Shown here in pieces: positions 18,001-24,000 of a DNA stretch of 64,000 nucleotides. The position numbers are program-made. The stretch covers positions 4,717,699-4,781,698 of the forward strand of contig OZ252030.1 of NCBI GenBank assembly GCA_965247305.1. Reading direction: 5' to 3'. The stretch is from Bryobacterales bacterium. GTDB lineage: Bacteria > Acidobacteriota > Terriglobia > Bryobacterales > UBA6623. Position 1 is the first letter of the stretch; every line of letters begins with the position of its first letter.

Positions 18001-21000
18001 ACTCGACCGGCATGCGCCGCCTGGAGCTGGCCAGGCTCAAGCTCTACGACCTTGATGCTGAACGTGGCACGGTGAACATCCGCCAAGGCAAGGGCGGCAA
18101 GGATCGCGTCATCCCCATCGGCGATCGCGCCGCGGCTTGGGTCCACAAATACGCCGAAGAAGCCCGGCCGCAACTCGTCGTCGAGCCGGACGACGCCACC
18201 GTATTCCTCTCCAATGCCGGCGAAGCGTTCTCGCTCGATCATCTCTCCGACCTAGTGCGAGTCCACGTTGACGCGGCCGAGATCGGCAAGCGCGGCGCGT
18301 GCCACCTGTTCCGCCACACCATGGCGACGCTGATGCTCGAAGGCGGCGCCGACATCCGCTACATCCAACAGATGCTCGGCCACGCGGACTTGAAGACGAC
18401 GCAGATCTACACGCAAGTCTCGATCCGCCAATTGCAACAGATCCACGCCGCCACGCACCCGGCCAAGCTGCCCAAGCCTTCTTCCCTTTAGCCGCTCACG
18501 CTACACCCGCGCCGTACAATCGAGGGGACGGTGACGGTGTCCCGCACACGAACGCTTGTCCAAGTTGCGGCGCTAGTCGCGATTTGCAGCCTGCCGCTCG
18601 CCGCGCACACGCGCGTAGCCCAAAACTCGCCTCTAGGCCTCAAGACTTTCAGCACACCTTCGCACCAGGGCTTCGCCGAAGCTAACCCGCTGATTGCACC
18701 TGGCTTAGCCGAATCGTTGTGCCACCAAGGCGTCCGATCCCGTTGTTCCGCCAAAGAGCGCGATGACGAGTCGGGCCTGGATTACTTTCTGGCGCGCTAT
18801 TACTCGACCAAGTTGGGACGATTTACGAGCGTGGATCCCGAGAACGCCGGTGCATCTTTGGCTGATCCACAACTCTGGAACGGATACTCTTATGTCGGCA
18901 ACAACCCATTAGTGCGAGTCGATCCTGACGGTCGAATCGTTTTCACGCTGGCGGCAGTTGGAGCGGCTCTATACACAGCGTTTGAGGTGGCTTCCACCGC
19001 CCTGGATGTATTCACGCTTGCCGAGACAATCCAAGACCCAAATTCGACCGGAAGCGATATCGCTCTGGCAGCCGGTGGTCTTGCTGCAGGAGTAGTCGTC
19101 CCGGGTCCCGGTGGGACGGTCGCCAAGGGTGCGAAGGCGGTCGGGGGTATAGGAAGGCGGGCTGTCCGCTCGGCTGGCAAGCGAGTCGCGCTTGATGCAG
19201 ACAAGCTAATCAATCTGGAAAAGCTCGGAAAGCAGGCGCTGGAAGGGCTTGAGGGTCGACTGATCGCTACCAAGCAGGCGTTTAAGGAACTACTAAAGGG
19301 TTCGACCCGTAAGGAATCGAACAAATTGCTCAAGAGGTTTGGGATTGAAAAGGATTTCAGCAACCCAAGGCCCAAGGTCAGATCTGAAACCTTCGAAGCA
19401 GCGCGAAAAGCCGGATTGACCGTCAAGGACGCTAAGGTCGTTTCGGAAGCGAGGTCTATTGGGGCGAAAGTTTCGTCCAGGGACAAGGCTGTTGAGAGGT
19501 TTGTGGAGGAAGTCGAGCAAGGCCTCGATCCGTAGGTAGGGTGGACTTATGCAGAAGATAGCGTTGGCGGTCGACGTGATCCTAAGCGCACTTGTCGGCA
19601 AGTATCGGGAAGGCATCGACGATCACATCAATCAGGCCAAGAGCGGTGAAGCTGAAATAGTAATCTTTCACGACGCTCTCTGTTACGCCCTATCCGCGGT
19701 AAGAGAGAAGGACGAACTAGATATGGAGAAATTCTCTGAGCTGCTCCGACACTCGACCGTAGTGGAATCACCAGAGTTCACCAGAGAACATTCCTCTGAT
19801 TGGCGGCCCTCTGTTGATGAGGTAGAACACTGGCGCGAGATCGCTCTGAAGGACTAACCGAGCGTCCTTTTAAGCCCTGGAAGGTGTGAAAAAATTGATC
19901 TTGAAAAATTTCCTGGACTGATTCAAAATAGGTTAGCTGTGCCCCAATGCTCGAATCCGGGATTTTTTCACACCTTCCTGTCCCTTGGTAGGGTCGGGAA
20001 CTGGCGCGGTGGCCCATCAGGACGTTGGCTTGGCTGTATCCGGGGAGATCGGGGACAGGGGTAAAACTAAGCAAACCTTTATATAACATCGGTTTACGGC
20101 GATTTGAATGTAGCAGTAAACTCACAACGTTATGCCCCGCGATGAGTGTCTCGTTATCGCCGGAATGCCCCACGACATCAGACAACGAATACGAAGAAAT
20201 GGGGACACGAAGAAATGGGGACAACGCGAAAGCGCCGGGATAAACCGGCGGGGAGTAGGGGATGAAAGAGCCCTACAGTGAAGGAGTAGCGAACCACGCT
20301 GACCTCGAGTCATGCGGCGGCGGGGGCGACCTCGCGGCCGAAGCGTTGACAGAGGTACTGGCGGGCGGGCTATTGAGCCGTGAATAAACTCATTTCGGAG
20401 GCCGACGTAGTGCGTTGTACGGGAAGGCAACAGCGGCTGTCGCGCCATCGCGAGCGGCGGTCGGCTGCGGCGCGGTCGTTGGAAACTTAGCACGCCAGGA
20501 AACTCCCCGCGCGAGAACCGGGAGACCTCGACAACGCTCTGTCGGCAACGGCAGGCCGGCGGGTGAAGGCCAAGGCCGCACGACCCGCGTGTACGTTGTG
20601 GAGGAGTCGGACCGAGCCGTAGTACCTACGAAGGAACCGAACAAGGGCGGGGAACCGTCGGCGGAGGTTTTGGAGGAAAGGACTCGGGCCAAGGAGAACG
20701 ACGATGAGCCGCGCACGGTCCGCACACAGTGGCGGACAAGCCGTGACCCCGGGGCCATCGGCGTACGGCGTGGAGGCTTCTCAGAAGCCGCTACGGACGT
20801 CATTATCCGAGGCAGGAGATGAAATGAGGAGGCCCGTCAGGGGAGTGAGTTAAGCTCCCCGCAAAGGGCGTCGCCGCGGGGCGGCGATCCTGGATTTTTC
20901 TAAGGAGAAAAGGAGAGACGAGCCATGAAGAAACAGAGCAAGACCCTGGTAGTGAGATCGAAACAAGAGATGATCGAGCGCGGTATGAATGCCGTAGCCG

Positions 21001-24000
21001 GGCTCGACTTGGGCGACAAGCACAGTGTTGTGACGGTGATGGACCTCGACGGCGAGATCGTGGAGCGCAAAAAGATTCCGACTAGCTTGGCCGGGTTCGA
21101 GAGTTATTTCCAAGCCTGGGTCCAGATGCGAGTGGTGTTTGAAGCCGGCACTCACGCCAACTGGACCTACCGCTTGCTCGAGCGCTTGGGACACGAGCCG
21201 TTGATGGCCGACACGCGCCGTCTGGCGCTGATCACACAATCGCTGTCGAAGGACGAGCGCAAAGACTCCGAGCGATTGGCGGAGTTGGGACTGCGGATGC
21301 CTGAGATGTTGAATGCGGTCGAGCCGTGCTCGTTGGAAACCCAGAACGATCGCGCGGTATTGAAGGCCCGCGAGGCGCTGCTGGAAGTACGCACGAAGCT
21401 GATCAACAACATACGCGGCACGCTGAAGAGTTTCGGGCGGCGGCTGTCGGCTTTGACTTCCCCCGCGTTTGCCAAGAAAGCGGGTCCGCTGCTGCCGGAA
21501 GAGTTGCGAGAGGTGCTGCATCCCGTGCTGCTGCTGATCCAACATTTCGGGGGAGCGTTCACCCGAGCTGGGCATCACCAAGACGGGGGATCCGATGATG
21601 CGGCGACTACTGGTGCAATGCGCCCAGCACATCTTGGGTCATCGTGGAAAGGATTCGGCGCTGCGACGTTGGGGTTTAGGGTTAGCGGCTCGTGGTGGGA
21701 CCAAGAGCGCCAAGCGCAAGGCGCTGGTGGCGCGCAAGCTGGCGGTGCTGCTGCACGTGTTGTGGCAACGCGACGTGGACTTCGACCCGTTCTACGGCGT
21801 TGACGATGTTCCCGAAGCCGTGCCACAAGCAGCTTAGCTCGACTGCGCGACTTGATTCGAGCGTGATGGATTGAAGGCAACGGAGACGAGACGAGCAACA
21901 GCGGCAGGAAATGTCTGACAACGAGTTCACGGTGACTGCGGGCATACGGCCGGCCCTCGAGGCCGTCGATGGAGCGGGCAGCAGCGTCCAGAACCGAACT
22001 TCATAGAGCACCGCATCGAAGAACCGATGCCACTGAGAGTGCGGATGGAAGCCCGGTCGGACTATTTTCCAAGAACCTGAAGCTTATTGAGACTCTTTTG
22101 CCCTTGACAAAGCGAACCTCCTCATGGAAGCCGTATGAGTTGAAGCTCACGCACGGATCTGTGCGCGGGGCGTCGGGTGACCGGCATCCCTACCGCGACC
22201 CGATTTTTGCGGGGCAGCGGTTCCGCGCCGTGCTTCAACAAAGGCCGGTTGGATTCCGTTGTCAACAGCGTTTCTACGACGAGCTTCCCTTCCTACGACG
22301 CGGTAGGCAGGGCCACGCAGAGCAGCCAGATCACCGCTGGGACAACCTATCCGTTCATCTACACCTACAACCTTGACAGCACACTCGAAACCCAGACTTA
22401 CCCCGACGGCCTCAAAGTGGCGTTCAAGTACGACACCGCCGGGCGTCCCACCAAGGCTGGGCGCAACACCGTCGGCCAAATCGACTTCGCCCAAGACATC
22501 ACCTACAAACCCCACGGAGCGCCTGATCAATTCACGCTTGGCAACGGACTTACCGAGACAACGACCTACAACAACCGGTTGCAGCCCTGCACGATGACCG
22601 CGAGTACACTACTCACGCTCACCTTCAAATACGGGGCGACCGACAGCGGCAACTGCGTTGTTACCAGCAACGACAACAACGGTAATATTCTGCAACAAGT
22701 GATCACCGCTTCGGGAAACCCGACCTTCACCCAGAAGTACACCTACGACGCCGTCAATCGCATCGAGACCGTCGGCGAAAACAACAACTTCTGGCAGCGC
22801 ACGTACAGCTATGACGCTTTCGGAAACCGAGCCGCGACTGGCTCGGGCATCACCATGGGGTCCCCGACGCCCACGGCGGTCACGCAATTCGACGCGGCTA
22901 CAAACCGCATCATAAAATTGCCTACCGGTGCCGATCTCGACCCAGACCCCATGGTGACGACCGACGATCCCTACGACGAGGCCGGCAACCTCGTACGCCA
23001 CCCGATTGTCGGCTCGATGGCCTACGACGCCAACAACAAGCAGCGTTTCTATTGCACGGGGCACGTGACTTGCGGGTCCGGGAACGCCATCGCCGAATAC
23101 CGATACGACGGAGCGGGCAACCGCGTGGAGAAGCTCACATCATCGGAGACGACGACCTTCGTGTACGACGCGTTCGGCAAACTCGCGGCCGAGTACTCGA
23201 CGACCGCGCCGACCAGCTCCGGGCTGTTCTTCCGCACGCTCGATCACCTCGGCTCGACTCGGCTCGTGACCGATGACACTAATCCTCCGAACGTCATCTC
23301 GCGCCGCGACTTCCTACCCTTCGGCGAACACATCCTCGCCGATGCCACGTTCAATCGCCAAGGCCTCGCGGGCTACAACGCCGGCTCGGCGTTTACCCAG
23401 CAGTTCACCGCCAAGGAACGCGATGACGAGTCGGGCCTCGACTACTTCCTGGCGCGGTACTACTCGCCGAAGTTGGGACGGTTTACGAGTGTCGATCCTA
23501 ACAATGTTGGAGCGACCCTCGATACACCGCAGTCGTGGAACGGGTACGCGTACGTCAACAATCGACCGCTCGTTCTGACCGACCCTGACGGCAGGTGCCC
23601 AAACTGCGCAACTGGGGCGGCAGGATTTGGGATCGGCTTCGTCATCGGGGCAGGCGCAGAAACGTTCCGACAAGCAAAAGAACAGTTCTCGAAGGGTGGG
23701 AGAATACAACTCGACGGCAACAAGATTCTGGCCAAGGGAGTCGGGACCGGCGTCTTCGGTGCCGCAGTTGGCTTCACCGGAGGGTTGAGTCTGGCCGCAG
23801 TTGGCGTCGGGGGTGCCGCTGGGGTTGCAGGTGGAGTCATTGAAAGGGGCATCGACTCGGACTCGACCACCGCTCCTTTTAGCGCGGGCGACGTCAAAGC
23901 TGATACGATCAGTGGCGCAGCTGGCGTACTGATTCCAGGGGTTGTAGTCAAGAGCTTTGGCAGTCTCCCCACTGCCGCCGCCGCGAAGGGCGCTGCGACG

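What a model noticed while it worked through the whole genome (the two positions that open the first line are those of the whole stretch)
20816..22128. IS1111 bridge recombinase re-programmed to home into catalytic domain 5 of group II introns
An IS1111-type IS110 element sits exactly at the domain 4/domain 5 junction of an ORF-less group II intron here (twin at C1:3648.7-3650.0 kb), and close relatives sit at the same junction of other introns. Its right-end RNA carries a guide complementary to the first bases of domain 5, at the position where sister elements carry a guide for REP palindromes, so it is likely a natural bridge RNA retargeted to the most conserved part of group II introns. It would be an RNA-guided recombinase that uses ribozyme retroelements as a standing target, restoring the AGC triad so that the intron may still splice and carry it.
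Evidence so far: Left flank ..CCGAGGCAG|GAG, right flank |AAGCCGTATG..D5/D6; an empty site lies at C1:5980921. In a sister genome 3 of 3 copies with 95% transposase identity have this junction on both flanks, in different introns (two with intact RT); a 4th copy has D5 on its right flank. An 84%-identical element in a metagenome has the same left junction and D5, and two more contigs show an IS1111 end joined to another D5. The guide after the fixed scaffold GACTGCG co-varies with the target: GGCATACGGC (D5), AGTCCACGCC (REP; the 72%-identical family and g01319), TGGGCACGGC (a third target). Paper searches showed no such case.
(Added by a program. Inside this text positions count along the whole contig: contig position 4,717,699 is position 1 of the stretch shown here. 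"Call 12" and the like, gene names such as g00115 and contig names such as C1 are that model's own, and its searches are not shown. The text may have been shortened before it was handed on; [...] marks where a part breaks off. The agent that wrote the report below was given it as the finding of a first reader that could run no searches.)

Follow-up and report, generated by a model that had tools for sequence, protein, structure and literature searches.

The report
RNA-guided transposon targets intron catalytic core
A bacterial jumping gene sits at the same two letters of the catalytic centre of self-splicing group II introns in all four assemblies where it was found, and its own RNA carries a matching stretch that likely guides it there, making it likely a parasite that disables another mobile element rather than one that rides it.

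Summary
The targeting claim holds; the riding claim does not. An IS1111-group element (window 20819-22128) lies in a 1972-base ORF-less group II intron, between two copies of an AG core, the first two letters of domain 5's AGC triad. Its right-end RNA folds into a two-loop bridge RNA. Across 13 distinct guides in sister elements the first guide arm co-varies with the right flank (0 of 10,000 shuffles reach it). All 8 copies with the guide GCATACGGC, in 4 assemblies (transposases 83-95% alike, one clade), sit at this junction: at least 4 independent events. Sister elements hit REP-like hairpins.

Limits: the local copy is dead (206-bp deletion). The twin is a segmental duplication. The four G008 copies share flank marks, so they are not four clean events. 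The target is one intron lineage's junction, not domain 5 in general. In G008 all 4 guide-matching introns are loaded and single-copy, 3 visibly damaged, while a 13-copy expanding intron with a mismatched domain 5 is untouched. This points to a parasite with possible escape. Splicing is untested. Nine paper searches and the scan's earlier notes showed no such case.

The parts
20222..20227 (+). IBS1 of the 5' exon (CAACGC), complementary to EBS1
   Evidence: intron-less related locus at C1:3500036 joins window 20227 to 22200
20228..22199 (+). ORF-less group II intron with the IS inside; non-canonical 5' end GAAAGCG
20265..20485 (+). Intron domain 1 (Rfam RF02005, 154 bits); EBS1 GCGTTG at 20412-20417
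20606..20808 (+). Intron domains 3 and 4 (short, no ORF); both candidate closing helices end 5' of the IS
   Evidence: consensus fold of 9 empty relatives
20805..20818 (+). Left target ATCCGAGGCAGG plus left copy of the core AG (20817-20818)
   Evidence: 132 matching uninterrupted junction motifs in 32 of 77 family genomes
20819..22128 (+). IS1111-group element, 1310 bp (intact G008 form 1522 bp; 23 mismatches in 1310)
20824..20832 (+). Left sub-terminal inverted repeat ATGAGGAGG
20925..21837 (+). Broken IS110 transposase: 206-bp deletion between 21545 and 21546 (aa 209-276 of the 374-aa G008 protein), frame shift, 6-bp deletion at 21725/21726, E in place of the likely third catalytic D
21920..22061 (+). 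Predicted bridge RNA (seekRNA) in the right end: target loop then donor loop
   Evidence: consensus fold of 16 sequences
21942..21950 (+). Right target guide GCATACGGC, complement of G-CCGTATG(C) at the start of D5
21966..21974 (+). Left target guide TCGATGGAG; matches only GG plus core AG next to the cut
21999..22004 (+). Right donor guide CTTCAT, complement of the element's left end ATGAA
22044..22051 (+). Left donor guide GATGGAAG, matches the element's right end ATGGA plus core
22104..22109 (+). TTGACA, -35-like hexamer near the right end (function not tested)
22117..22125 (+). Right sub-terminal inverted repeat CCTCCTCAT
22128..22159 (+). Domain 5; core AG 22129-22130 = first two letters of the AGC triad; first D5 base is now A from the IS (A-C mismatch), and the 3' arm has one further mismatch
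22160..22199 (+). Domain 6 and 3' splice site
22200..24201 (+). 3' exon: Rhs core fragment

Best explanation
This is a decayed copy of an IS1111-group insertion sequence that sits at the AG of the AGC triad in group II intron domain 5; its right-end RNA likely acts as a bridge RNA that guides the recombinase to that junction, and the insertion likely disables the intron rather than being carried by it. Shown: the junctions, the shared AG core, the guide match, guide-target co-variation in sister elements, 8 of 8 guide-bearing copies at D5, one clade. Inferred from known IS1111 biology: the element forms a circle whose joined ends (..ATGGA|AG|ATGAA..) are read by the donor loop; the target loop reads GG|AG|CCGTATG; the DEDD recombinase exchanges strands at AG, in the intron's orientation. 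Inferred origin: three or four changes in a 9-base guide moved a REP-hairpin-targeting ancestor onto D5, which also starts a hairpin right after an AG. Inferred outcome: the intron is a repeated, non-essential, horizontally spreading landing site; loading puts 1.5 kb into the central wheel and ends its spread; introns with an altered D5 stem are missed.
For: Guide-target co-variation: mean 6.85 of 8 non-core matches over 13 distinct guides against 4.71 +/- 0.33 shuffled, 0 of 10,000; left arm 3.12 of 4 against 2.36, 0 of 10,000, 17 pairs. Both arms face each other in one internal loop, top-strand complement first, the order reported for IS1111 (PMC11187229, passages). GTDB-wide guide scan: 5 of 21 hits were real elements, 5 of 5 at the intron junction; 16 of 21 were chance matches without a transposase hit. 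Metagenome scan: 1 of 1 at D5, beside an empty tandem intron. D5-guide transposases form one clade, SH-aLRT 100, nested among REP-like-target elements (quick tree). G008: 4 of 4 CCGTATG-type D5 loaded; 0 of 13 same-lineage introns with D5 arm CCCAGTG and 0 of 6 CCGGATG-type seen. The CCCAGTG intron is the expanding one: 9 full copies 99.9-100% alike, YADD in 13 of 13. Loaded G008 introns are single-copy: one D6 cut off, one RT broken, one 5' part missing, one with intact RT but a D5/D6 unlike its nearest relatives. Perfect empty junctions occur in 43 of 132 motif hits, in 14 family genomes.
Against: No experiment: RNA expression, circle formation and transposition are unshown; one search listed no circle joint or exact empty allele (contigs drop rare forms). 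The left guide matches only 4-5 of 8 positions against 6-7 in most sister elements. Only 4-5 events can be called independent. The three G008 left flanks share GAGCTAGG, seen in 0 of 132 uninterrupted motifs, and three right flanks share one D6 variant, so recombination shuffled or spread these copies. The escape pattern rests on one genome and two mismatched intron lineages (by lineage 3/3 against 0/2, p 0.1). G000 keeps 2 perfect empty D5 targets. Inactivation is inferred from decay, which could predate the IS.
Confidence: 0.72

Rival explanations
1. Same guided targeting, but the loaded intron still splices: the IS folds as an extra helix closed by its inverted repeats, is removed from host mRNA and is carried by retrohoming (an IStron-like partnership).
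For: AGC is rebuilt and the RT stop codon is kept. Insertion is always in the intron's orientation. The 9-bp repeats pair with p 0.9-1.0 in the window fragment. One loaded intron has an intact RT. Flank marks shared among G008 copies could come from RT template switching.
Against: The repeats did not pair (p 0) in the L032 fragment, so folding is inconclusive. The insert lies 3' of D4's closing strand, not in the tolerant D4 loop. No loaded intron is found at two exon sites other than by a 9.7-kb duplication. The expanding intron is unloaded.
Confidence: 0.15
2. The guide serves some other repeat with the sequence ..ATGG|AG|CCGTATGC; D5 is only a frequent near-match and intron hits are what survives selection.
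For: The left guide reads ATGG, all intron targets read (T/C)AGG. About half of the perfect 11-mers are outside introns: 4 of 6 uninterrupted in G000, 2 of 2 in G008.
Against: 8 of 8 copies in 4 assemblies are at D5 and none at another repeat. ATGGAGCCGTATG occurs 0 times in G000. In G008 4 of 4 D5 against 0 of 2 non-intron perfect sites are loaded (p 0.067).
Confidence: 0.08
3. One old chance insertion into D5 was inherited and spread by recombination among introns; the guide match is incidental.
For: Shared flank marks in G008. D5 and REP targets already share the start AG-CCGT.
Against: Elements 83-97% alike sit in different intron bodies with different flanks. G008 copies are 100% identical in introns only 73-85% alike, and one right flank diverges 8 bases from the core, too short for homologous recombination. 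The guide differs from REP guides at exactly the 3-4 positions that make the D5 match.
Confidence: 0.05

Closest known systems
ISPa11, ISPpu9, ISPpu10, IS621 (REP-targeting IS110/IS1111 elements; PMC1525189 passages, PMC11187229 passages)
   Same: IS110-family DEDD transposase, fixed insertion point in a repeated, potentially folded sequence; the sister elements here target REP-like hairpins with the same scaffold.
   Different: Target is the catalytic domain of a ribozyme retroelement; core is the AG of the triad; transposase only distantly related to IS621 (E 2e-4).
IS1111-attC group (ISKpn4, ISPst6) and IS4321/IS5075 (Tn21 terminal repeats); seen in PMC11187229 passages and reference list
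   Same: IS1111-group elements that use a conserved functional site of another mobile system as a standing target; right-end seekRNA with top-strand complement first.
   Different: Those targets are DNA recombination sites; here the site is conserved because of RNA catalysis, and the host element can in principle escape by compensatory stem changes.
Bridge RNA / seekRNA of IS1111 elements (PMC11208160 section 12 and passages; PMC11187229 passages)
   Same: Long right end, sub-terminal inverted repeats, 2-base core, separate target and donor loops with co-varying guides.
   Different: Neither main text contains the word intron; no intron target in the searchable supplements.
IStrons (group I intron fused to an IS; PMC13521648 search listing only, rest recalled) and group II introns inserted in IS elements such as RmInt1 in ISRm2011-2 (PMC4238363 search listing; pairing taken from scan note e1-8438725)
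   Same: Intimate IS-intron nesting.
   Different: Nesting is reversed and guided: the IS seeks the intron. Nothing shows a fixed, spliceable fusion here.

Membership tests
IS110 family, IS1111 group | Transposase with DEDD_Tnp_IS110 and Transposase_20 domains | tested here: met
   Intact G008 copy: PF01548 56.8 bits, PF02371 51.8 bits, NF033542 190 bits over cut-off 140. Window copy keeps only PF01548.
IS110 family, IS1111 group | Sub-terminal inverted repeats of 7-17 bp | tested here: met
   9-bp ATGAGGAGG/CCTCCTCAT; longer in sister elements; range from PMC11208160 section 12.
IS110 family, IS1111 group | Short left end, long non-coding right end | tested here: met
   106 bp before the start codon, 291 bp after the stop.
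IS110 family, IS1111 group | Short shared core, no longer target duplication | tested here: met
   AG on both sides; right core AG in 35 of 36 elements.
IS110 family, IS1111 group | Circular intermediate with joined ends | tested here: inconclusive
   No such joint listed in contigs of 4 runs; contigs drop rare forms.
Bridge RNA / seekRNA | Target loop with two guides that co-vary with the target, top-strand complement first | tested here: met
   order as in PMC11187229. Left arm match is short in the D5 clade.
Bridge RNA / seekRNA | Donor loop matching the element's own ends | tested here: met
   LDG ATGGAAG/ATGCAAG follows right ends CATGGA/CATGCA; RDG follows left ends only in part; no shuffle test run.
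Bridge RNA / seekRNA | RNA is expressed, binds the transposase and is needed for transposition | not testable with these tools
   No RNA holder listed.
Group II intron (host) | Domains 1-6 with D5 AGC triad and EBS1-IBS1 pairing | tested here: met
   Rfam D1 154 bits; D5/D6 weak here (24.8 bits), 26.7-37.6 in G008 loaded copies; EBS1-IBS1 6 of 6.
Group II intron (host) | Canonical 5' GUGYG | tested here: not met
   Starts GAAAGCG, fixed by EBS1-IBS1 here and in L031, L033, L112; GUGYG consensus is recalled.
IStron-like spliceable IS | The IS is spliced out with the intron and moves with it | tested here: inconclusive
   Folding contradictory; no loaded intron at two independent exon sites; no RNA data.

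The most novel reading that the evidence does not exclude
A natural bridge recombinase has been retargeted to the catalytic triad of group II introns and runs an arms race with them: it fills every guide-matching intron in a genome, selects for introns with compensatory changes in the domain 5 stem, and drives domain swapping between introns through its identical copies; some loaded introns may still splice with the IS as an extra domain.
Probability: 0.25. Interest if true: 0.85.

Novelty: new variant of a known kind. Interest (0 to 1): 0.62.

Why it matters
It adds a ribozyme active site to the known natural targets of IS1111 elements (REP, attC, transposon ends) and shows a natural retargeting by 3-4 guide changes within one well-sampled scaffold. 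It gives a testable case of one mobile element hunting another through an RNA guide, with a candidate escape variant in the same genome. If the intact element works in the lab it is a ready tool to tag or knock out one lineage of group II introns, and the 13 natural guide-target pairs on an AG core are a data set for IS1111 guide rules. If a loaded intron splices, it would show that the central wheel tolerates a 1.5-kb extra domain.

Tried and rejected
Junction pattern (IS end + D5): 0 of 400 other phylum genomes, 0 of 61 genomes around G477 (G477's own D5 is deleted), 0 hits in two viral scans. Plasmid blastn: 14 records matched only D5/D6, none the bridge RNA. An order-wide scan for the 14-base right end was too short to be informative. 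Single-sequence fold of the right end was no better than shuffles (z 0.26); only the alignment fold was useful. First automatic extraction of the left guide was wrong for several elements (105 of 10,000) and was redone; the RDG column was also mis-anchored for many rows. Whole-fragment folding of loaded introns gave opposite answers for the inverted repeats. Sequencing runs: no RNA holder listed. Contigs of three other studies show the intact element joined to the D4 end and to D5, but 20 differences in 741 bases equal G008's, so they are probably G008-like strains and were not counted. Further runs (five other studies) were not examined, so other flanks there remain open. The careful tree did not finish; the quick tree is used. 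Eight of 36 elements had too little transposase for the tree and the window copy was left out. Rejected: 'simple frameshift' (it is a deletion), 'twin is a second insertion', 'C1:5980921 is the empty allele', 'two intact RTs'.
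Full report
1. What is in the window. Window 20228-22199 is an ORF-less group II intron. Rfam finds domain 1 at 20265-20485 (154 bits) and a weak D5/D6 match at 22126-22199 (24.8 bits, below gathering). A related intron-less locus at C1:3500036 joins window 20227 to 22200, and EBS1 GCGTTG pairs with the six bases before 20228, which fixes the ends. 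Inside it lies a 1310-bp element, 20819-22128, with 9-bp sub-terminal inverted repeats and a copy of AG on each side. Uninterrupted relatives read ATCC(G/A)AG..GG|AG|CCGTATG, so AG is the core, and it is the first two letters of the D5 AGC triad (triad identity is established knowledge, recalled). The right junction rebuilds AGC but turns the first D5 pair into A-C. The transposase is broken by a 206-bp deletion against the intact G008 form, which also shifts the frame, and has E where the intact protein has the likely third catalytic D. The intact form is a full IS110 transposase. The twin at C1:3648733-3650045 lies in a 9.7-kb duplication at 99.96%: one event.

2. The guide is real. A DNA search of 77 family genomes found relatives in 22. 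I fetched 60 stretches; with L099, L112, the window and three REP-type copies in G000 this gave 36 elements with a bridge scaffold and a right end; stretches without both were dropped. The alignment fold of 16 of them gives a stem, an internal loop, a hairpin, then a second looped domain; 5 of 31 pairs show compensatory change. The first loop arm is the complement of core G plus the right flank: 6.85 of 8 non-core matches over 13 distinct guides, against 4.71 +/- 0.33 in shuffles, 0 of 10,000. Three elements matched only 4 of 9 (L042, L058, L061). The facing arm matches the left flank plus core: 3.12 of 4 against 2.36, 0 of 10,000, 17 pairs. Relatedness is not controlled in these shuffles. The order, top-strand complement first, is the one reported for IS1111 (PMC11187229, passages). 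The second domain follows the element's own ends. In 34 of 36 elements the predicted fold of the right flank starts a hairpin at base 1 or 2 after the core, REP-like in sisters and D5 here (no shuffle control).

3. The guide predicts the site. A scan of GTDB genomes for scaffold plus any D5-type guide gave 21 hits: 16 chance matches with no transposase hit and 5 real elements, all at the intron junction: four in G008 (record title Bryobacterales) and L099 on a 3.2-kb contig of a MAG filed under Myxococcota, possibly mis-binned, where D5 is deleted after AGCCGT and D6 follows. The metagenome scan gave 1 hit, L112, loaded at the junction and next to an empty tandem intron. With the two G000 copies that is 8 of 8 copies in 4 assemblies; both flanks are seen for 6, the right flank only for L034 and L099. 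Their transposases are 83-95% alike and form one clade with four further clusters of unknown context (SH-aLRT 100, quick tree), sister to elements with REP-like guides; the next protein is 77% alike. The D5 guide differs from the common REP guides at 3-4 of 9 positions. Random insertion cannot explain this: only 6 uninterrupted GGAGCCGTATG occur in 8.55 Mb of G000.

4. How narrow the target is. It is one intron lineage's junction. In G000 0 of 23 AGCCGGATG-type D5 and 0 of 3 AGCCGTGTG-type are loaded, and 2 perfect D5 targets stay empty. In G008 4 of 4 CCGTATG-type D5 are loaded, and 0 of 6 CCGGATG-type seen and 0 of 13 CCCAGTG-type; my list of other D5 types there may be incomplete. Two perfect 11-mers outside introns are empty (4/4 against 0/2, p 0.067), a hint that the hairpin matters. 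Perfect empty targets are common in the family: 43 of 132 motif hits, in 14 genomes. The element is rare: 2 of 77 family genomes, 0 of 400 other phylum genomes, 0 of 61 around G477, none in viral contigs or plasmids.

5. The three full G008 copies are identical over 1522 bp and sit in intron bodies 73-85% alike. All three left flanks read GAGCTAGG, found in 0 of 132 uninterrupted motifs. Three right flanks share one D6 variant. The nearest empty relatives of the L032 RT have a D5 like L033's, not like L032's, and lack the two left-flank changes that L032 shares with L033. So flanks were shuffled or co-converted between copies, or mis-assembled. L033's right flank parts from the others 8 bases after the core, which suggests at least two guided junctions in G008. 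The safe count is 4 events (G000, G008, L112, L099), 5 with that one. A preprint reports top-strand direct transfer of single junctions by IS110 (10.1101/2025.10.25.684509, abstract and sections 8-9); it could explain swapped right flanks but not a shared left tract.

6. Does the loaded intron live? Probably not. A consensus fold of 9 empty relatives places both candidate closing strands of D3/D4 5' of the insertion point, so 1.5 kb enters the central wheel. Folding of loaded fragments closed the IS by its repeats in one case and not in the other. Of four loaded G008 introns one has D6 cut off, one a stop and YAAD in the RT, one lacks the 5' part, one has an intact RT. None occurs twice. The intron that is spreading in G008 has 13 copies (9 full ones 99.9-100% alike, YADD in all 13), nearly the same left junction (GAGGTAGG), and a D5 stem changed on both arms with three mismatches to the guide; this variant appears in no other of the 77 genomes. 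This fits saturation and escape, from one genome only. No RNA holder was listed.

7. Known or new. IS1111 elements that target REP, attC sites and Tn21 ends are known (PMC11187229 passages and references; PMC1525189 passages). The word intron does not occur in the main texts of PMC11208160, PMC11187229, PMC13604230 or 10.64898/2026.08.14.744561 (term search and passages only), nor in a relevant place in the searchable supplements of the first two (one PDF each unreadable, one file cut). 10.64898/2026.10.21.760802 mentions both topics separately (passages); its supplements are closed and could hold such targets. Nine searches combining IS110, IS1111, bridge RNA, seekRNA, bridge recombinase, group II intron, domain V, REP and attC listed no paper on IS110 targeting of introns (listings and abstract starts only). 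Subscription journals and ISfinder were not searched. The scan's earlier notes hold the reverse nesting and a shared-repeat case, not this one.

8. Verdict. Member of the IS1111 group with a predicted bridge RNA; new in its target. Guided D5 targeting about 0.87; of that, parasite more likely (0.72) than spliceable passenger (0.15). New variant of a known kind, interest 0.62.

Noticed in passing
window 20228-20236; L031, L033, L112, G000 C1:719412: This intron sub-lineage starts GAAAGCG instead of GUGYG; EBS1-IBS1 pairing fixes the 5' end two bases upstream of AAGCG in four introns. The 13-copy G008 intron starts GAGCG.
   Followed up: partly
G008, loci L147-L159: Thirteen near-identical RT-bearing introns with a compensated D5 stem (CCCAGTG / CACGCTGGG), all after a similar AT-rich 5' exon; two have D6 cut by the same other element.
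   Followed up: partly
window 14540-18491 and 25551-28511: Tandem modules of a 986-aa CHC2-Toprim primase-like gene, a tyrosine integrase, Rhs fragments with small downstream ORFs and an HTH-type ORF (25051-25461); 9.7 kb is duplicated at C1:3.64-3.65 Mb.
   Followed up: partly
window 20190-20227; C1:993571, 3638959, 4717392: Short direct repeats of GAAGAAA(T/A)GGGGAC precede the intron; three other loci carry only the first 35 or so intron bases after the same repeats.
   Followed up: no
window 19870-20045: A short element with inverted ends (GGAAGGTGTGAAAAAA..TTTTTTCACACCTTCC) and further 40-50 base repeats present at many genome sites.
   Followed up: no
G000 C1:1508243, 2647427, 4680549: Three intact IS1111 elements (44% aa to the window copy) with the same inverted repeats, guide GTCCACGCC, in REP hairpins; two of three left ends do not match their own donor guide.
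   Followed up: partly
L034:3404-4707: The loaded intron's 3' end runs into the RT gene of a second group II intron of another type (a twintron).
   Followed up: no
G026 (four places): Another D5 stem variant, CCCGATG, two mismatches to the guide, in four copies; no D5-guided element was found in that genome.
   Followed up: no
G012: 38 matches to the IS right-end motif: a large expansion of the REP-guided sister element.
   Followed up: no
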